The notes under the pieces were generated by a model. The model saw only the letters and a list, made by a program, of their open reading frames with translations, was not told where the DNA came from and searched no databases. Positions 1-5,638 of a DNA stretch of 5,638 nucleotides are shown here, piece after piece. How positions within the stretch are numbered: the first letter of the stretch is position 1; each line of letters begins with the position of its first letter. This DNA comes from a virus (lineage: Duplodnaviria > Heunggongvirae > Uroviricota > Caudoviricetes), in IMG/VR virus record IMGVR_UViG_3300029181_000111; one strand, written 5' to 3'. The translations under genes and the position numbers were made by a program.

Positions 1-51
1 CTGACACCGTTGAATTATCTCGCCAAACAGCGACAAAAAGTGATGTGGTGA
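1..51 (+). CDS. Possible 3' end of an upstream AraC-family regulator gene (envY-like); 5' part lies outside the window
   Basis: Frame 1 reads LTPLNYLAKQRQKVMW then TGA at 49-51. The TP..Y spacing resembles the C-terminal G-x-TP-x-x-Y tail of AraC/XylS proteins (compare [10 protein letters not shown] at the AppY C-terminus in this window). Only 16 codons are visible, and frame 3 is also open here, so this is weak. Confidence 0.3.
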   Translation: MTPLNYLAKQRQKVMW

Positions 52-96
52 AGGGCAAAGCGGAAACGGATAAGACGGGCATAAATGAGGAAGAAA

Positions 97-141
97 TGGC
101 GCGCCCTGCAGGATTCGAACCTGCGGCCCACGACTTAGAAG
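97..141 (-). other. 3'-terminal 45 nt of tRNA-Arg(UCU) (argU) without the 5' half: prophage attachment-site core (attR-type remnant)
   Basis: Reverse complement of 97-141 is CTTCTAAGTCGTGGGCCGCAGGTTCGAATCCTGCAGGGCGCGCCA: anticodon loop with UCU, T-arm GGTTCGAATCC, acceptor 3' strand and CCA. Sequence beyond 141 (tRNA 5' side) does not continue as a D-arm or acceptor 5' strand, so this is a fragment, not a gene. Lambdoid prophage DLP12 is known to integrate into argU. Confidence 0.85.
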
Positions 142-464
142 TTCCTAGAACGACATTTTAAGTCAACAACTTACCGCGCCATCTCTGCGCTCACACGTCC
201 CACTACCTCAAAACATGTAAAGCCTTGCAAGCCATTGCGAGGCCTTATGTGTCTCAGTTTTGTCCCTCTTTTTTGTACTAAAAAACATAGTAATTGAGGA
301 TAAACCTCATGCTATTTTCGCTTATATGCCTCTAAAGGCATGGCACTTAAATAGATAAAAGCACCACAAAAGCATAAAAAAACCACACAGTAAAACCGAA
401 ATATGAAACAATAACAGATAATTAAACCAAAAACAGATAGCGCATTGTGATAATCATTCAATAC

Positions 465-481
465 TAAACAAAATATAAACA
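465..481 (-). promoter_or_regulatory. Candidate PhoP box (direct repeat TGTTTA-N5-TGTTTA read on the minus strand) upstream of ompT
   Basis: Plus strand 465-481 is TAAACAAAATATAAACA; reverse complement is TGTTTA-TATTT-TGTTTA, a perfect match to the (T/G)GTTTA-N5-(T/G)GTTTA PhoP consensus. It sits about 85-100 bp upstream of the ompT ATG. ompT is reported to be PhoPQ-regulated; function of this particular site is inferred. Confidence 0.45.
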
Positions 482-553
482 GTGGAGCAATATGTAATTG
501 ACTCATTAAGTTAGATATAAAAAATACATATTCAATCATTAAAACGATTGAAT

Positions 554-557
554 GGAG
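554..557 (+). promoter_or_regulatory. Shine-Dalgarno sequence (GGAG) for ompT
   Basis: GGAG lies 7 nt upstream of the ATG at 565. Confidence 0.7.
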
Positions 558-564
558 AACTTTT

Positions 565-624
565 ATGCGGGCGAAACTTCTGGGAATAGTCCTGACAACC
601 CCTATTGCGATCAGCTCTTTTGCT
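565..624 (+). other. ompT: OmpT signal peptide (predicted cleavage after Ala20, SFA/STE)
   Basis: N-terminal basic residues (R2, K4), a hydrophobic core, and A-x-A-like SFA before the mature N-terminus STETLSF. Confidence 0.8.
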
Positions 625-1518
625 TCTACCGAGACTTTATCGTTTACTCCTGACAACATAAATGCGGACATTAGTCTTGGAACTCTGAGCGGAAAAACAA
701 AAGAGCGTGTTTATCTAGCCGAAGAAGGAGGCCGAAAAGTCAGTCAACTCGACTGGAAATTCAATAACGCTGCAATTATTAAAGGTGCAATTAATTGGGA
801 TTTGATGCCCCAGATATCTATCGGGGCTGCTGGCTGGACAACTCTCGGCAGCCGAGGTGGCAATATGGTCGATCAGGACTGGATGGATTCCAGTAACCCC
901 GGAACCTGGACGGATGAAAGTAGACACCCTGATACACAACTCAATTATGCCAACGAATTTGATCTGAATATCAAAGGCTGGCTCCTCAACGAACCCAATT
1001 ACCGCCTGGGACTCATGGCCGGATATCAGGAAAGCCGTTATAGCTTTACAGCCAGAGGTGGTTCCTATATCTACAGTTCTGAGGAGGGATTCAGAGATGA
1101 TATCGGCTCCTTCCCGAATGGAGAAAGAGCAATCGGCTACAAACAACGTTTTAAAATGCCCTACATTGGCTTGACTGGAAGTTATCGTTATGAAGATTTT
1201 GAACTCGGTGGCACATTTAAATACAGCGGCTGGGTGGAATCATCTGATAACGATGAACACTATGACCCGGGAAAAAGAATCACTTATCGCAGTAAGGTCA
1301 AAGACCAAAATTACTATTCTGTTGCAGTCAATGCAGGTTATTACGTCACACCTAACGCAAAAGTTTATGTTGAAGGCGCATGGAATCGGGTTACGAATAA
1401 AAAAGGTAATACTTCACTTTATGATCACAATAATAACACTTCAGACTACAGCAAAAATGGAGCAGGTATAGAAAACTATAACTTCATCACTACTGCTGGT
1501 CTTAAGTACACATTTTAA
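565..1518 (+). CDS. ompT: Outer membrane protease OmpT (omptin family, protease VII), 317-aa precursor
   Basis: ORF of 317 aa with good RBS. The translation matches E. coli OmpT as I recall it, including signal peptide MRAKLLGIVLTTPIAISSFA, the catalytic Asp pair in VDQDWMD (precursor D103/D105) and the Asp/His pair in SDNDEHYD (precursor D230/H232), and a C-terminal aromatic residue (…GLKYTF) typical of beta-barrel outer membrane proteins. Confidence 0.97.
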   Translation: MRAKLLGIVLTTPIAISSFASTETLSFTPDNINADISLGTLSGKTKERVYLAEEGGRKVSQLDWKFNNAAIIKGAINWDLMPQISIGAAGWTTLGSRGGNMVDQDWMDSSNPGTWTDESRHPDTQLNYANEFDLNIKGWLLNEPNYRLGLMAGYQESRYSFTARGGSYIYSSEEGFRDDIGSFPNGERAIGYKQRFKMPYIGLTGSYRYEDFELGGTFKYSGWVESSDNDEHYDPGKRITYRSKVKDQNYYSVAVNAGYYVTPNAKVYVEGAWNRVTNKKGNTSLYDHNNNTSDYSKNGAGIENYNFITTAGLKYTF

Positions 1519-1534
1519 GAACGCCAACTAAAAT

Positions 1535-1563
1535 TTCCCCGAGGTGAAAATCGCCCCGGGGAA
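1535..1563. terminator. GC-rich hairpin in the convergent ompT/appY intergenic region; possible transcription terminator
   Basis: TTCCCCG (1535-1541) pairs with CGGGGAA (1557-1563), 7 bp with a 15-nt loop, 17 bp after the ompT stop. There is no U-tract on the plus strand; on the minus strand it is followed by AUUUUAG. Weak as a classical intrinsic terminator. Confidence 0.3.
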
Positions 1564-1767
1564 TAACTAGCCATTTCAATGTAACAATTAACCCTTAAAA
1601 TAAACCCAGAAGGTTATTAACTAAATCACATAGAAAACCATCAATTATAGTATGTATAAAATAGGCGACAGCAACCCAATTACAAATTAATGGTTCCAGA
1701 ATATCACATCAAAAAAAACGCTGTATAATATTATAATTAACATGTAGACAACTTGTAATAAACATTA

Positions 1768-2517
1768 TCAGTCAATTGTTTTGTTTATTCCATCTGTGAC
1801 GCCGATTATTTTCTCAAAATAATGAGATGGCGTGACACCATAATAATCTTTAAATGCACATATGAAATATGAAGTACTGTTATAGCCACATTTCTGGGCT
1901 ACGACATTGATAGAATAAGAGTTTGAAGTTATGAGTTTTTTTGCATACCTCATCCTAGTATCTCTCAATATTTCAGTAAATGACGTTCCTTCATCCCTTA
2001 ATCTTTTTTTTATTAAACTTTCACTCGTATAAATCAATTCCGCAATATCTTTTAAATGCCATTGCCGCTCAATATTAAAACTGATTATTCCAGTAATTTT
2101 ACAGGTAAATGTATTTATATTTGTTAGTATAAATGAATTTACACTTTCGCGTTTTTTGAACATGGCAAGTAAGGATATACATAGTCTTTCTTTTAACCAA
2201 AGGGAGTGTGAGTCTGCTATTTTAATCCCTTCAAACAGAGAAAAAACAAGCGATAATGGAGGTTCCTCTTCAGCAATATAGCCATTCTTATCAAGAGTAA
2301 ATTTGCCAGGCAGCTCATTATTCACGTCGATAAAAAAGGATAAACATGTTTTCTTATCTATATCAACAATTCTTAGTTTAGAGGGGCATACTGGTAACTC
2401 CCTTCTAATTTTGTCGCTTACAATAAACAATGAATTTTTTTTGAACGAGATAACTCTCCTGTTTATAATTAAATCAAATGATTGACAGATGAAAACTACG
2501 GAGCAAACATAATCCAT
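1768..2517 (-). CDS. appY: AraC-family transcriptional activator AppY (C-terminal HTH domain), 249 aa
   Basis: 249-aa ORF with ATG start and an AGGTG SD-like sequence upstream. The C-terminal region has AraC-type HTH signatures (…[25 protein letters not shown]…). It is convergent with ompT as in K-12 DLP12, and the sequence matches my recollection of AppY. The gene is very AT-rich. Confidence 0.9.
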
Positions 2518-3062
2518 CTTGCACCTATCATAAAATTAAAACAAGTTGATAGTAGTCAAATAACAACCAATTAAATACACAATCATAATCAGGATGATGT
2601 GCATTTATATTTTTATACACAAAATTATAGTTTGCAAATTTTAATAAATTTCATTTAAGATTAAATTATTATATGTATGTTGTTTTTTATTCTAACTTAT
2701 TTCAAAGTTACATTTTTCAACGCTTACTATGCTTTTTATTAACATAAACTCACTACAACGCACCTGAAACCTCTTGCTATATATATGTCAACCGTTTGAA
2801 TTTAAAATAAAAAGAGTATCATTTTTACTTGCATTTCTTATCAAGTCACATTCAACAACAGTAAAAAAACATTATTAGAACCATTCAATTAACAAAAAAC
2901 CAACATCCAGCTTGCTTAATTTTTCTTTATTAAACGATATTGAAAATCAATTGATAAAATACATCTAAACAACCTTTTGGGGCGCAAAAGCATAACATCA
3001 AACAAACAAATAACACACCGAAAAAACTCACAATTAATAACCTATGATATACATACTGTTTA

Positions 3063-3323
3063 TTATGGTTGAATAAGCCACTCGATATCTGGTGCTACGG
3101 AAGTGTCCACACGGTTTAGCAGCACCCGATACTTTTTTCAGGCTTCCAGCAACGATCTTTCTTCCTCCGTTGCGATTTCCAGATCTACAGCATCCTGCAG
3201 TGGCGCAATATACTCACTGAATTCCTGGATGTAGAACTGTGTGGTGACGGTCTTCCAGCCATTCGGCTCCTGCTGTATTGAAGCATACCAGGCTATTTCA
3301 ATATCGCTATGCTGCGGCAGCAT
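3063..3323 (-). pseudogene. tfaX: Tail fibre assembly protein remnant (tfaX-like); C-terminal Tfa homology interrupted by an in-frame TGA
   Basis: The 61-aa ORF 3138-3323 ends …[25 protein letters not shown], matching the intact Tfa in this window (…[29 protein letters not shown]…). At the position of Tfa Trp (TGG) this copy has TGA. Reading on in the same frame gives [20 protein letters not shown]… to a TAA at 3063-3065. The N-terminal part is diverged. Confidence 0.7.
3077..3219. repeat. Copy 1 of a 143-bp imperfect direct repeat (3' end of tfa-family genes)
   Basis: By hand alignment, 3077-3219 against 4124-4266 shows about 17 mismatches over 143 bp (about 88% identity) with no indels. 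Confidence 0.85.
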
Positions 3324-3461
3324 TTAACCCCTTGTAATTCATTGCCATAATTGATTTAATTCACAAATAAAACTATAACATGGTGAAATTAATAAAAAAA
3401 CACAGATGATGGGGCTAGAATTTACACACCACTTACCCTAAAGCTTTATGACTGGTGGGTT

Positions 3462-4046
3462 TTGGGAGTATCAAATCGGCTTGCATGGGGATGTCCTACA
3501 AAGGAACACCTTCTTCCACACTTTCTGGAACATTTAGGTAACAACCATCTGGATATTGGTGTTGGAACTGGGTTTTACCTTACTCACGTACCTGAGAGTA
3601 GTCTGATATCTTTAATGGATTTGAACGAAGCTAGCCTGAACGCGGCATCTACAAGGGCTGGGGAATCAAAAATTAAACATAAAATTAGCCATGATGTTTT
3701 TGAACCTTATCCCGCGGCGTTACATGGTCAATTTGATTCCATTTCCATGTCTTACCTTCTTCACTGCCTGCCTGGAAATATATCTACAAAAAGCTGTGTA
3801 ATACGCAATGCGGCGCAGGCCTTAACTGACGATGGAACTCTATACGGAGCCACAATTCTTGGCGATGGAGTTGTGCACAATAGCTTCGGTCAAAAACTGA
3901 TGCGCATTTACAATCAGAAAGGCATCTTTTCAAACACAAAAGATTCCGAAGAAGGCTTAACACATATACTCTCAGAGCATTTCGAGAATGTTAAAACCAA
4001 GGTTCAAGGTACTGTAGTAATGTTTTCCGCTTCAGGAAAAAAATAG
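3462..4046 (+). CDS. ybcY: Class I SAM-dependent methyltransferase (ybcY-like); start codon uncertain, possibly 5'-truncated or a pseudogene
   Basis: Motif I LDIGVGTG, an acidic residue after beta-2 (LISLMDLNE) and an FDSISMSYLLHCL motif-II-like segment. The ORF track starts at TTG 3462 with a poorly spaced SD. The same frame is open back to 3396 (…PLTLKLYDWWVLGVS…) with no in-frame ATG or GTG. ATG-ATG at 3406-3411 is one nucleotide out of frame. The position between tfa and tfaX matches ybcY of K-12 DLP12. Confidence 0.6.
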   Translation: MGVSNRLAWGCPTKEHLLPHFLEHLGNNHLDIGVGTGFYLTHVPESSLISLMDLNEASLNAASTRAGESKIKHKISHDVFEPYPAALHGQFDSISMSYLLHCLPGNISTKSCVIRNAAQALTDDGTLYGATILGDGVVHNSFGQKLMRIYNQKGIFSNTKDSEEGLTHILSEHFENVKTKVQGTVVMFSASGKK

Positions 4047-4086
4047 CATCCAACCGCAGCATGTTCTTGCTTAAGACGTGCTGCGG
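4038..4086 (-). terminator. Candidate intrinsic terminator downstream of tfa (minus-strand sense)
   Basis: Stem CCGCAGCATG (4054-4063) pairs with CGTGCTGCGG (4077-4086), 10 bp with one G-U pair and a 13-nt loop. On the minus strand it is followed by UUGGAUGCUAUUUUUUU. It lies between the convergent stops of tfa (4101) and ybcY (4046). Confidence 0.35.
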
Positions 4087-4100
4087 CATAATCCCAATGA

Positions 4101-4685
4101 TTACTCCCTGACAGGGTTCGTAGGCCACTCAATATCAGGTGCAGTTGATGTATCAACACGGTTCAGCAACACCCGATATTTTTTCCAGGCTTCCAGCAAT
4201 GAGGTTTCTTCCTCCGTTGCGATTTCCAGATCTACAGCATCCTGAAGTGGCGCAATATGCTCACTGGCTACCTGCATCAGGCTGTTTTTTGTTTCTTCCG
4301 CCTCCCGAATCCGGAACAGTTTTTCTGCTTCTGCATCTTTCACCCAGGCTGTACCGTTCCACTTCTGAAACTCCCCTTCCGGCGATAACCAGGTAACATT
4401 TTCCGGTAACGGACCGAGTTCAGAAATAAATAACGCGTCCCCTGACGCTACGTCATAAACCGTTTTACCCCGATGATCTTCAACGAGATGCCACGATGAC
4501 TCATCACTGTTGAAAACAGCCACGAAGCCAGCTGGAATATCTGGCGGTGCAATGTCGGTACTGTTTGCTGGCAGACCTGTATGAGGCGGAATATATGCAT
4601 CACCTTCACCAATAAATTCATTAGTTCCGGCCAGCAGATTATAAATTTTTATGGTCCGTGGTTGTTCACTCATTCTGAATGCCAT
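4101..4685 (-). CDS. tfaD: Tail fibre assembly protein Tfa (lambda Tfa-like), 194 aa, apparently intact
   Basis: The 194-aa ORF ([24 protein letters not shown]…[11 protein letters not shown]) closely matches lambda Tfa as recalled. Its ATG overlaps the upstream stf stop in the TAATG arrangement typical of stf-tfa. The symbol is assigned by position in DLP12 and is uncertain. Confidence 0.9.
4124..4266. repeat. Copy 2 of the 143-bp imperfect direct repeat (3' end of the intact tfa)
   Basis: See copy 1. This copy lies within the tfa coding sequence. Confidence 0.85.
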
Positions 4686-5548
4686 TATGCAAGCCTCACA
4701 ATATAGTTAAATGCGATGTTTTTGACGGTGTTTTCCGCGTTACCAGCAGCGTTAACGGTGATGGTGTGTCCATGTGAGCCAATCGCAACGGAGTGCGTAT
4801 GAGCACCAATACCGACAGTATGTGCATGTGCGCCTGCGCTTGCAGCAGTGCCGGACAGCGAGTGGGTATGAGCACCATCTGATGATGTCTTCCCTGCATT
4901 ACGAGTCTGGCCACTACCGCTTGTTGTGCTCATAATCCCCGCGCTCAGATTTGAAATCGCGGTATAACCATTAGGAAAAATGCTCGTATTCGTGCCACCA
5001 AATGCACCGGAACTCTTGTGTTGGTGCGCACCGGCACTATTTGCAGTCCCGCTAATACTATGGGTATGCGCCCCGGTGTTATTCGTGGATTTGGTTCCGT
5101 AATCAAACGACGATGTGTTTTTCGTCCCCAAATCCGTACTGGATGCGCTGGCGCTGTGGGTGTGCGATTTAATGCCGTCCTGTTCCTGAGACAATACGGC
5201 ACGACCACTGGCGGGTTTGCCCTTAATCGTCCAGCCACGCATAAGGGTGTTGCGCTGCTTATGCTCTATAAAGTAGGCATAAACACCCAGCAGCATTTTG
5301 GAATAACCGACACGGGCAGACTTCACCACATTCACCTCACGGATGTAGTCGCTGCCCATCGCATTCATGATGGCCCGCTGAAAGGGCAGTGTTTCCCAGC
5401 GCCCTTCCTGGTATGCGGATTCTTTCGGGAGATAGTAATTAGCATCCGCCCATTCAACGGCGGTCTGTGGCTCCGGCCTGAACAGTGAGCGAAGCCCGGC
5501 GCGGACAAAATGCCGCAGCCTGTTAACCTGACTGTTCGATATATTCAC
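4685..5548 (-). CDS. In-frame chimeric ORF: N-terminal ~103 aa of terminase large subunit (lambda gpA-like) fused to the C-terminal ~184 aa of a side tail fibre (Stf) receptor-binding region; deletion scar of a defective prophage
   Basis: The N-terminus [102 protein letters not shown] matches lambda gpA as recalled, with a GTG start overlapping the Nu1 stop. After …RNTL the sequence switches to Stf-like His/Gly/Ser-rich repeats ending …[31 protein letters not shown]. The junction is near nt 5240. It may correspond to the aaaD/stf remnant of K-12 DLP12, which I am not sure of. Confidence 0.85.
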
Positions 5549-5638
5549 TCAGCAACCCCGGTATCAGTTCATCCAGCGCGGCTGCTTTGTTCATGGCTTT
5601 GATGATATCCCGTTTCAGGAAATCAACATGTCGGTTTT
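5523..5638 (-). CDS. nohD: 3' end of terminase small subunit gene (lambda Nu1 homologue); 5' part lies outside the window
   Basis: The minus-strand frame reads …[37 protein letters not shown] with TAA at 5523-5525, matching the lambda Nu1 C-terminus as recalled. The stop overlaps the start of the downstream A-like ORF, as in lambda. Confidence 0.8.

What the first reader, a model, noticed from the sequence alone, without database searches (positions are those of the whole stretch)
4685..5240. Seven HxH motifs retained in the Stf-derived receptor-binding tip
The Stf-derived part contains SHTHS, AHTHS, AHQHK, AHTHS, AHAHT, AHTHS and SHGHT (seven H-x-H motifs), encoded by related DNA repeats around 4740-5100. 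In the phage T4 long tail fibre tip (gp37), HxH motifs from three chains coordinate a column of metal ions. The complete motif set plus an intact Tfa suggests the tip domain could still fold, which is notable for a cryptic prophage.
Basis: partly seen in the sequence, partly recalled or inferred. Interest (0 to 1): 0.4.

Follow-up and report, generated by a model that had tools for sequence, protein, structure and literature searches.

The report
Leftover phage tail-fibre tip gene
The window holds the last 185 codons of a lambda-type side tail fibre gene, fused by a deletion to the start of a terminase gene; it keeps all seven metal-binding His-x-His motifs because the deletion is recent, and this is ordinary for E. 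coli prophage remnants.

Summary
ORF 4685-5548 (minus strand, 287 aa) joins terminase gpA residues 1-102 in frame to the C-terminal 185 residues of a side tail fibre (Stf). Those 185 residues hold seven H-x-H motifs that use all 14 histidines. The motifs align one-to-one with the seven iron-binding pairs of the T4 gp37 needle (PDB 2XGF, E 6e-50). Their spacing matches gp37 except across the variable distal tip. The next gene is a full-length Tfa, 95% identical to a lambda-type Tfa.

The fragment starts at gp37 position 858. It therefore lacks two thirds of the N-terminal arm of the collar domain and everything that attaches a fibre to a virion.

Retention is not notable. The DNA is 100% identical to an intact prophage at the same locus, and K-12's own Qin remnant carries the same tip (183/185) with TfaQ.

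Two side findings:
- The window equals K-12 DLP12 plus 701 bp.
- The Stf breakpoint (D|MRGW) recurs in at least 12 differently partnered deletions, which is unexplained.

The parts
4688..5242 (-). Stf-derived part of the chimeric ORF: 185 codons (chimera residues 103-287), equivalent to the T4 gp37 needle, residues 858-1026. The stop codon is at 4685-4687.
   Evidence: Translation. 100% DNA identity to the 3' end of the 987-aa Stf of NCTC9038. 2XGF match at E 6.4e-50. Pfam PF03335 Phage_fiber at E 1.7e-7.
5153..5167 (-). HxH motif 1, SHTHS (chimera H129/H131). Aligns with gp37 H883/H885.
5057..5071 (-). HxH motif 2, AHTHS (H161/H163). Aligns with gp37 H915/H917.
5015..5029 (-). HxH motif 3, AHQHK (H175/H177). 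Aligns with gp37 H929/H931, whose alanine substitutions abolish T4 plaque formation.
   Evidence: PMC6957217
4874..5014 (-). Variable distal tip between motifs 3 and 4 (47 residues). This is the presumed receptor-contacting head. It is 15 residues longer than in gp37 and divergent from both gp37 and lambda Stf.
   Evidence: Alignment and spacings. The receptor role is inferred from gp37 mutagenesis (PMC6957217).
4859..4873 (-). HxH motif 4, AHTHS (H227/H229). Aligns with gp37 H966/H968.
4817..4831 (-). HxH motif 5, AHAHT (H241/H243). Aligns with gp37 H980/H982.
4790..4804 (-). HxH motif 6, AHTHS (H250/H252). Aligns with gp37 H989/H991.
4763..4777 (-). HxH motif 7, SHGHT (H259/H261). Aligns with gp37 H998/H1000.
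5241..5243 (.). Deletion junction. TAT is shared by terminase (CCCTTAT|CTGG) and stf (CCTGATAT|GCGTGG).
   Evidence: Sequence comparison with the intact stf (NCTC9038) and an intact terminase N-terminus (CUPS03).
5244..5548 (-). Terminase large subunit (gpA) N-terminal fragment, codons 1-102, with a GTG start. It is fused in frame to the Stf part.
   Evidence: Pfam PF05876 GpA_ATPase at E 2.9e-10 over residues 47-103. 100% identical to K-12 DLP12 aaaD/nohD DNA.
4101..4685 (-). Full-length tail fibre assembly protein (Tfa, 194 aa). Its start overlaps the Stf stop by one base.
   Evidence: Pfam Caudo_TAP at E 3.2e-45. 95% identical to HK630 Tfa, 29% to T4 gp38 at E 1e-18. C-terminus matches Mu Tfa U, PDB 5YVQ.
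4540..5240 (.). The 701 bp that K-12 MG1655 lacks. K-12 DLP12 joins the same terminase point directly to tfaD codon 49.
   Evidence: blastn of the window against NC_000913.
5523..5638 (-). 3' part of nohD (Nu1-like small terminase subunit). It runs off the window and overlaps the chimera start by 26 nt. The window end coordinate 5523 is derived from the 26-nt nohD-chimera overlap in L007/L008.
   Evidence: Gene calls on the identical contigs L007 and L008. K-12 annotation.

Best explanation
This is a recent deletion remnant of a lambdoid prophage at the DLP12 (ompT-appY) locus.

How the parent works. In the parent phage the 987-aa Stf forms a homotrimeric side fibre. In its last ~170 residues each chain runs out to the distal tip and back. 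The seven H-x-H pairs of the three chains stack along the axis, and each layer of six histidines coordinates one iron ion. The variable loop between motifs 3 and 4 contacts the receptor, and Tfa is the chaperone needed for trimerisation. These points are inferred by homology to the T4 gp37 needle and lambda Stf.

What happened here. A deletion using 3 nt of microhomology removed everything between terminase codon 102 and Stf codon 802. That is the whole head and tail module, about 20 kb by lambda gene order. It left an in-frame gpA(1-102)::Stf(802-986) ORF followed by an intact tfa.

Why the motifs are all present. The deletion endpoint lies upstream of the needle, and there has been no time for decay. 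Selection on the tip need not be invoked.

What the product can do. It cannot be a fibre, because it lacks the virion-attachment domain, the shaft and most of the collar. Its most likely biological relevance is as homologous DNA (stf tip plus tfa) that incoming lambdoid phages can recombine with.

Shown: sequence identity, the junction, motif register, and an intact Tfa. Inferred: metal binding, trimer formation, lack of function, and the recombination role.
For: - Window 1-5243 is 100% identical to NCTC9038, where the same DNA is the 3' end of an intact 987-aa Stf. That gene sits within a complete J-lom-stf-tfa tail module.
- The junction is exact, with TAT shared.
- The same 287-aa protein and junction occur on two independent human-gut metagenome contigs (L007, L008; 100% identical over 988 and 968 nt). 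The junction is therefore not an assembly artefact.
- The motifs are in register with the iron-binding histidines of gp37 (PMC6957217; PMC11705849).
- Pfam finds no Collar (PF07484) and no Stf N-terminal (PF08400) domain in the chimera, while longer homologues have them.
- Deletions that leave tip plus tfa are common. Examples are the K-12 Qin remnant, a 601-aa gpA::Stf fusion in Qin of about 61 genomes, and many other fusions.
- The DLP12 locus shows at least three different head-tail deletions: the window, K-12 and PSJ-16.
- Lambda recombines with stf-tfa of Rac and Qin (PMC3945230).
Against: - The fusion is in frame and sits behind nohD in what would be the late operon, with an intact chaperone gene next to it, so expression and folding are not excluded.
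- One report assigns an adsorption-blocking role to a cryptic-prophage fibre protein, e14 StfE2 (PMC12529663).
- The Stf endpoint is reused by many independent deletions. A purely random decay model does not predict this.
Confidence: 0.72

Rival explanations
1. The chimera is expressed from the DLP12 late transcript. With Tfa it folds into an iron-bound trimeric needle carrying a terminase-derived N-terminal tag. It serves the host, for example by occupying an outer-membrane receptor and lowering adsorption of phages that use it.
For: - The ORF is in frame, has a natural start overlapping nohD, and is followed by an intact Tfa.
- The whole needle (D11 equivalent) and the C-terminal strand of D10 are present.
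- gp37 fragments lacking the shaft fold when co-expressed with chaperones (PMC6957217).
- There is a precedent claim for e14 StfE2 (PMC12529663).
Against: - There is no signal peptide or export route.
- 47 collar residues are missing and replaced by a truncated ATPase fragment.
- The exact chimera is very rare. It was found on three complete contigs (two ENA, one JGI) plus a 106-aa partial on a Logan contig among about 15 billion proteins, and in none of 5426 complete genomes.
- The K-12 lineage lacks the segment without known consequence.
- StfE2 has a different fold family (gp53-like) and lacks these motifs.
- No expression data could be obtained here.
Confidence: 0.1
2. Retention of exactly this unit (M802 to the end, plus tfa) reflects a site-preferring break or joining process at the collar/needle boundary of lambda-type stf genes. 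On this view neither chance nor selection on the protein is responsible. The window is one product of that process.
For: - At least 12 differently partnered junctions end at the same stf nucleotides...GAT|ATGCGTGG. The partners are gpA codon 102 (window), gpA codon 276 (23AR1101), gpK, RrrD, ParB-N, gpZ, DUF1441, two HTH proteins, an internal Stf deletion, the portal gene (out of frame) and the bor/iss region (non-coding).
- The out-of-frame and non-coding partners argue against selection for in-frame fusions.
- Control scans at +24 and +48 gave no junctions. The scan at -24 gave one event, which matches a second cluster (YPSG) seen in the proteins.
Against: - Event numbers in the frame-independent sample are small: 2-3 against 0-1.
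- No structure, repeat or known recombinase site was found at the point. The DNA fold z-score was -0.33, and no pix-like site was found.
- Microhomologies are only 1-5 nt.
- The protein list is not a random sample.
Confidence: 0.15
3. The junction is an artefact: a chimeric metagenome assembly joining a K-12-like terminase fragment to a fibre gene from another strain.
For: The window is itself a 5638-nt JGI metagenome contig. No complete E. coli genome contains the junction in one piece.
Against: Two other assemblies from different projects (ENA ERZ914683 and ERZ19662054) carry the identical junction and ORF. Only 3 nt are shared at the join, too few for an assembler to bridge.
Confidence: 0.03

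Closest known systems
T4 gp37 long tail fibre tip (needle, domains D10-D11; PDB 2XGF)
   Same: - About 58% identity over the whole 185 residues.
- Seven H-x-H pairs in the same alignment columns, with spacing identical except across the distal tip.
- The C-terminus [15 protein letters not shown] is identical.
- A gp38/Tfa-type chaperone gene follows.
   Different: - The distal tip is 15 residues longer and divergent, so receptor specificity is probably different.
- The fragment starts at gp37 residue 858 and lacks D10 residues 811-857 and the entire shaft.
- It is fused to a terminase fragment.
Lambda side tail fibre Stf with Tfa (Ur-lambda; the HK630 copy was used here)
   Same: - 65.5% identity of the tip.
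- The same gene order, stf-tfa, with a one-base overlap.
- Tfa is 95% identical.
- The Stf needle is described as structurally homologous to gp37 and as binding OmpC (PMC12617516).
   Different: - Lambda has eight H-x-H motifs, one extra 9-residue unit, and a 10-residue FDYGTK duplication.
- The variable tip differs.
- The window lacks the N-terminal ~800 residues of its parent fibre.
E. coli K-12 Qin prophage stf remnant (stfQ) with tfaQ
   Same: The tip is virtually the same: 183/185 identical, with seven motifs. It is followed by an intact tfa, lies next to a nohA/terminase region, and is a cryptic-prophage remnant.
   Different: The Qin remnant retains the collar (233 codons). It is not fused to terminase in K-12, though in about 61 other genomes Qin carries a 601-aa gpA::Stf fusion.
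E. coli K-12 DLP12 aaaD-tfaD junction
   Same: It lies at the same locus and has the same terminase breakpoint (after CCCTTAT, codon 102). Flanking DNA is 100% identical.
   Different: K-12 lacks window 4540-5240. It therefore has no Stf tip, and its TfaD is truncated (codons 49-194 fused in frame to gpA).
e14 StfE2 adsorption-blocking protein (Kirigo et al. 2025, PMC12529663)
   Same: It is a cryptic-prophage chimeric tail-fibre C-terminal protein with an adjacent tfa.
   Different: It is created by Pin inversion, not by deletion. Its C-terminal domain is gp53-like without H-x-H motifs. A function has been reported for it, whereas none was tested here.

Membership tests
gp37/Stf receptor-binding needle (2XGF type; Pfam PF03335 repeats) | Significant full-length sequence similarity to the solved needle | tested here: met
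   phmmer against PDB: 2xgf_A at E 6.4e-50, query 1-185 against chain 74-242. tblastn to T4 gene 37: 58.4% identity, 100% coverage.
gp37/Stf receptor-binding needle (2XGF type; Pfam PF03335 repeats) | H-x-H pairs in register with the seven iron-coordinating pairs of gp37 | tested here: met
   The MAFFT alignment puts all seven in the same columns. Spacing is 32,14,52,14,9,9 against 32,14,37,14,9,9, and both have 29 residues from the first histidine of the last pair to the C-terminus.
gp37/Stf receptor-binding needle (2XGF type; Pfam PF03335 repeats) | Complete knob/collar domain (gp37 D10: 811-881 plus 1010-1026; Pfam PF07484) | tested here: not met
   The fragment begins at gp37-equivalent residue 858. 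There is no PF07484 hit, while longer homologues have one. Domain limits come from PMC6957217.
gp37/Stf receptor-binding needle (2XGF type; Pfam PF03335 repeats) | Intertwined homotrimer with a column of metal ions | tested here: inconclusive
   The AlphaFold2 monomer with a 74-sequence alignment gave pLDDT 60.4 and pTM 0.24. Foldseek against PDB gave no match below E 0.2. Metal content cannot be tested with these tools.
Functional lambdoid side tail fibre gene | N-terminal virion-attachment domain (PF08400) and shaft | tested here: not met
   Only the last 185 of the parent's 987 codons remain. The N-terminus is terminase gpA 1-102.
Caudo_TAP tail fibre assembly proteins (lambda Tfa / T4 gp38) | Full-length protein matching the family profile, encoded directly downstream of the fibre gene | tested here: met
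   PF02413 at E 3.2e-45. 194/194 residues aligned, 95% identical to HK630 Tfa. T4 gp38 at E 1e-18. The start overlaps the stf stop.
Phage terminase large subunit gpA | Complete ATPase and nuclease domains | tested here: not met
   Only profile positions 3-61 of the 247 in PF05876 are matched. The sequence leaves gpA after codon 102.
Receptor-masking cryptic-prophage fibre proteins (StfE2 type) | Production of the protein reduces phage adsorption | not testable with these tools
   Only the literature precedent is available (PMC12529663).

The most novel reading that the evidence does not exclude
The boundary D801|M802 (GAT|ATGCGTGG), between the collar and the needle of lambda-type stf genes, may be a preferred break or joining point. 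On this reading it repeatedly leaves a self-contained 'needle plus Tfa' cassette in decaying prophages. The resulting products, either fusions like this one or a 185-aa protein starting at that ATG, would be made, fold with Tfa into iron-bound trimers, and be used by the host. Possible uses are receptor masking against superinfecting phages, or a ready-made host-range cassette for incoming phages.
Probability: 0.1. Interest if true: 0.55.

Novelty: already known. Interest (0 to 1): 0.2.

Why it matters
As stated, the finding matters little. H-x-H iron sites in gp37/Stf-type fibre tips, their Tfa/gp38 chaperones and their survival in E. coli cryptic prophages are all documented, and K-12 itself carries this tip in Qin. 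Three things are mildly useful:
- The contig is a natural form of DLP12 that differs from K-12 only by 701 bp. It shows how the K-12 aaaD-tfaD junction may have arisen, or that the terminase point is reused.
- It adds one more stf-tfa segment available for recombination with lambdoid phages.
- The reuse of one stf nucleotide position by many independent deletions, if confirmed, says something about how prophage structural modules are lost.

Tried and rejected
- **Monomer structure prediction.** AlphaFold2 on the 185-aa tip with a 74-sequence alignment gave low confidence (pLDDT 60, pTM 0.24). The Foldseek search of PDB returned only chance matches to long beta-hairpin proteins. This is uninformative for an obligate intertwined trimer.
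- **Tandem repeats.** Tandem Repeats Finder on 4600-5300 found none. The idea that the motifs are encoded by clear DNA repeats was dropped.
- **Pin/pix crossover site.** None was found in the window with up to 3 mismatches. A Pin-mediated origin of the breakpoint has no support.
- **DNA hairpin at the stf breakpoint.** The fold was no better than shuffles (z -0.33).
- **Promoter and terminator scan of 3900-5638.** Counts equalled those of shuffles. Nothing can be said about expression.
- **Assembly-artefact reading.** Rejected because two independent ENA contigs carry the same junction.
- **K-12 origin.** I first assumed the window was K-12 DLP12. This was rejected because K-12 lacks 4540-5240.
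- **Bartual et al. 2010.** The original 2XGF paper is not held. Domain limits and iron data were taken from PMC6957217 and PMC11705849 instead.
Full report
**What is in the window.** The 5638-nt window is the right-hand end of the E. coli DLP12 prophage region, read in reverse. ORFs and their Pfam domains come; gene names come from the RefSeq annotations.
- ompT, 565-1518 (+)
- appY, 1768-2517 (-)
- a tfa C-terminal fragment (tfaX), 3138-3323 (-)
- a methyltransferase ORF (ybcY), 3462-4046 (+)
- a 194-aa tail fibre assembly gene, 4101-4685 (-)
- a 287-aa ORF, 4685-5548 (-)
- the 3' end of nohD

By exact protein look-up, the window is a JGI metagenome contig of exactly this length.

**Observation check.** The 287-aa ORF has two parts. 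Residues 1-102 are the N-terminus of the terminase large subunit gpA (Pfam PF05876, E 2.9e-10). Residues 103-287 are a tail-fibre C-terminus (PF03335 repeats).

The second part contains SHTHS, AHTHS, AHQHK, AHTHS, AHAHT, AHTHS and SHGHT. All 14 of its histidines lie in H-x-H pairs. Composition-preserving shuffles give on average 0.97 such pairs, and seven were reached once in 100,000 shuffles. So the motif count and the coordinates are right.

The accompanying remark about related DNA repeats is weak:
- There is no tandem repeat.
- Only 14-18-nt matches link the three GAHTHS copies.
- The seven 21-nt motif segments average 56% nucleotide identity.

**Origin of the segment.** Window 1-5243 is 100% identical to strain NCTC9038. 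There the same DNA is the 3' end of a 987-aa fibre gene, inside a complete lambdoid tail module (tape measure, M, L, K, I, J, lom, stf, tfa) at the same chromosomal site next to appY-ompT.

Window 5241-5638 is 100% identical to the nohD-aaaD DNA of K-12.

The join is exact. Terminase ...CCCTTAT meets stf GCGTGGCTGG..., with TAT common to both parents. The deletion therefore removed everything from terminase codon 103 to Stf codon 801 and happened to stay in frame.

The junction is real. The identical ORF and junction occur on two contigs from unrelated human-gut metagenome assemblies. It is also rare, because no complete genome among 5426 has it in one piece.

**Relation to characterised fibre tips.**
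- The 185 residues match one PDB sequence, the T4 gp37 tip (2XGF), at E 6.4e-50 from first to last residue.
- They are 58% identical to T4 gp37, 65.5% to the lambda-type Stf, and 99.5% to the Stf of phage mEp332, whose record names K-12 as host.
- In a multiple alignment the seven motifs occupy the same columns as gp37 His pairs 883/885, 915/917, 929/931, 966/968, 980/982, 989/991 and 998/1000.
- Distances between successive motifs are 32,14,52,14,9,9 here and 32,14,37,14,9,9 in gp37.
- In lambda-type Stf the distances are 42,14,48,14,9,9,9, with eight motifs.
- All three have 29 residues from the first histidine of the last pair to the C-terminus.
- The only real difference from gp37 is therefore the length and sequence of the distal loop between motifs 3 and 4. 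In gp37 that region carries the receptor-contacting residues (PMC6957217).
- The literature reports that gp37 holds seven iron ions coordinated by these pairs, and that H929 and H931 are essential (PMC6957217; PMC11705849).
- Among 73 distinct homologous tips, 53 have seven motifs. The rest have five, six or eight.
- The full-length parent also has exactly seven, all in the retained part.

**The chaperone.** The downstream gene is full length. It is 184/194 identical to a lambda-type Tfa and 29% identical to T4 gp38 (E 1e-18). Its C-terminus matches the Mu assembly protein solved in complex with its fibre. 'Intact Tfa' is confirmed.

**What is missing.** MRGW, the first residues of the retained part, correspond to gp37 858-861. 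According to PMC6957217, the gp37 knob/collar domain D10 comprises 811-881 plus 1010-1026, and the needle D11 is 882-1009.

The fragment thus keeps the whole needle and the C-terminal strand of D10. It lacks 47 of the 71 N-terminal D10 residues, which are replaced by a truncated terminase ATPase fragment. Pfam accordingly finds no Collar domain here, although longer homologues have one. The shaft and the virion-binding N-terminal domain are gone.

The gp37 fragments I found reported as folding with chaperones start at residue 799 (PMC6957217) and at 785 (2XGF chain numbering). Both include the collar.

Whether this shorter piece trimerises is therefore open. My attempt to address it failed:
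- The monomer AlphaFold model has pLDDT 60 and pTM 0.24.
- That model gives no meaningful fold match.

**Is retention remarkable?** It is not.
- K-12's own Qin remnant has the same tip (183/185 residues, seven motifs), with the collar and an intact tfaQ.
- About 1000 of 5426 complete genomes carry at least 80% of this tip sequence.
- About 61 genomes carry a 601-aa gpA::Stf fusion in Qin.
- The best 120 homologues include in-frame fusions of the tip to fragments of terminase, portal, capsid, gpZ, gpL, gpK, gpJ, tape measure, lysozyme, ParB-like and DUF1441 proteins. In the contexts examined, each was followed by a full-length tfa.

With zero substitutions relative to an intact prophage, the complete motif set reflects recency and gives no evidence of preservation. 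The documented relevance of such remnants is as recombination partners for lambdoid phages (PMC3945230). One paper reports an adsorption-blocking role for a different cryptic fibre chimera, e14 StfE2 (PMC12529663). That keeps a host-level function conceivable but untested here.

**Side finding 1: relation to K-12.** K-12 MG1655 is 100% identical to window 198-4539 and 5241-5638, but it lacks 4540-5240. Its aaaD-tfaD junction uses the same terminase point (…CCCTTAT) joined to tfaD codon 49 (…CCAGATAT|TCCAGC), again in frame.

There are two possible histories. K-12 may descend from the window type by a second 701-bp deletion between two TAT triplets. Alternatively, the terminase point was used twice. 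The K-12 junction occurs in 366 complete genomes. Strain PSJ-16 has yet another deletion at this locus, gpA 1-247 joined out of frame to tfa codon ~18.

**Side finding 2: a recurrent stf endpoint.** The stf side of the junction (…CCTGAT|ATGCGTGGCTGG) is shared by at least 12 deletions with different left partners.
- Verified at the DNA level: gpA codon 102 (window), gpA codon 276, gpK, RrrD, ParB, the portal gene (out of frame) and the bor/iss region (non-coding).
- Seen at the protein level: gpZ, DUF1441, two HTH proteins and an internal Stf deletion.
- Shared bases at the joins are only 1-5 nt.

I scanned IMG/VR for the 24-mer after a candidate point, preceded by a non-native base at position -6. 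This gave two events at this site, plus one event 6 nt upstream. It gave one event at -24, the YPSG cluster also seen in the proteins. It gave none at +24 or +48, where the only hits were natural polymorphisms.

Out-of-frame and non-coding partners argue against selection for fusion proteins. No hairpin or pix-like site explains the point. The numbers are small and the mechanism is unknown.

**Verdict.** It is unproven about folding, and wrong in treating retention as notable. The feature belongs to a well-described family and is already represented in K-12. I score interest at 0.2.

Noticed in passing
window 4540-5240 and junction 5241-5243; L006 (NC_000913) 7655-7665: The window equals K-12 DLP12 plus 701 bp. 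K-12 joins the same terminase nucleotide (after CCCTTAT, gpA codon 102) to tfaD codon 49, also in frame. The flanks are 100% identical. Either K-12 arose from this form by a second deletion, or the terminase point was used twice.
   Followed up: partly
window 5243/5244; L001:17243; L010:3103/3104; L011, L013, L014, L136-L138: The stf breakpoint GAT|ATGCGTGG (D801|M802) is shared by at least 12 deletions with different left partners, including out-of-frame and non-coding ones. Secondary clusters lie at |YPSG and |YPKL. Control positions at +24 and +48 showed no junctions in IMG/VR. No mechanism was found.
   Followed up: partly
L009:3563-5368 (strain CUPS03, Qin prophage): A 601-aa in-frame fusion of terminase gpA (about 367 residues) to the Stf collar plus needle, followed by tfaQ and pinQ. 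It is present in about 61 complete genomes and annotated there simply as 'phage terminase large subunit family protein'.
   Followed up: partly
L152:1296-2569 (strain PSJ-16, DLP12 locus): A third, independent head-tail deletion at the same locus: gpA codons 1-247 joined out of frame to tfa near codon 18.
   Followed up: partly
window 3074-3219 and 4121-4266: Two direct copies (87% identical, about 146 nt) of the tfa 3' end flank the oppositely oriented methyltransferase ORF (ybcY). The upstream copy is the tfaX fragment. This suggests an older tfa was displaced by a module exchange.
   Followed up: no
window 3462-4046 (+): The ybcY-like class I SAM methyltransferase ORF (194 aa from a TTG start) is annotated as a frameshifted pseudogene in the identical DNA of NCTC9038 and CLSC36.
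   Followed up: no
window 3991-4128 (-): A 45-aa ORF overlapping the ybcY 3' end and the tfa 3' end is annotated in RefSeq genomes as 'nucleocapsid protein' (WP_071592174.1). This is probably a spurious call.
   Followed up: no
homologues P0021-P0137: The number of H-x-H motifs in related tips varies: five (8 tips), six (3), seven (53) and eight (9). The nine-residue units near the C-terminus appear to be gained and lost.
   Followed up: no
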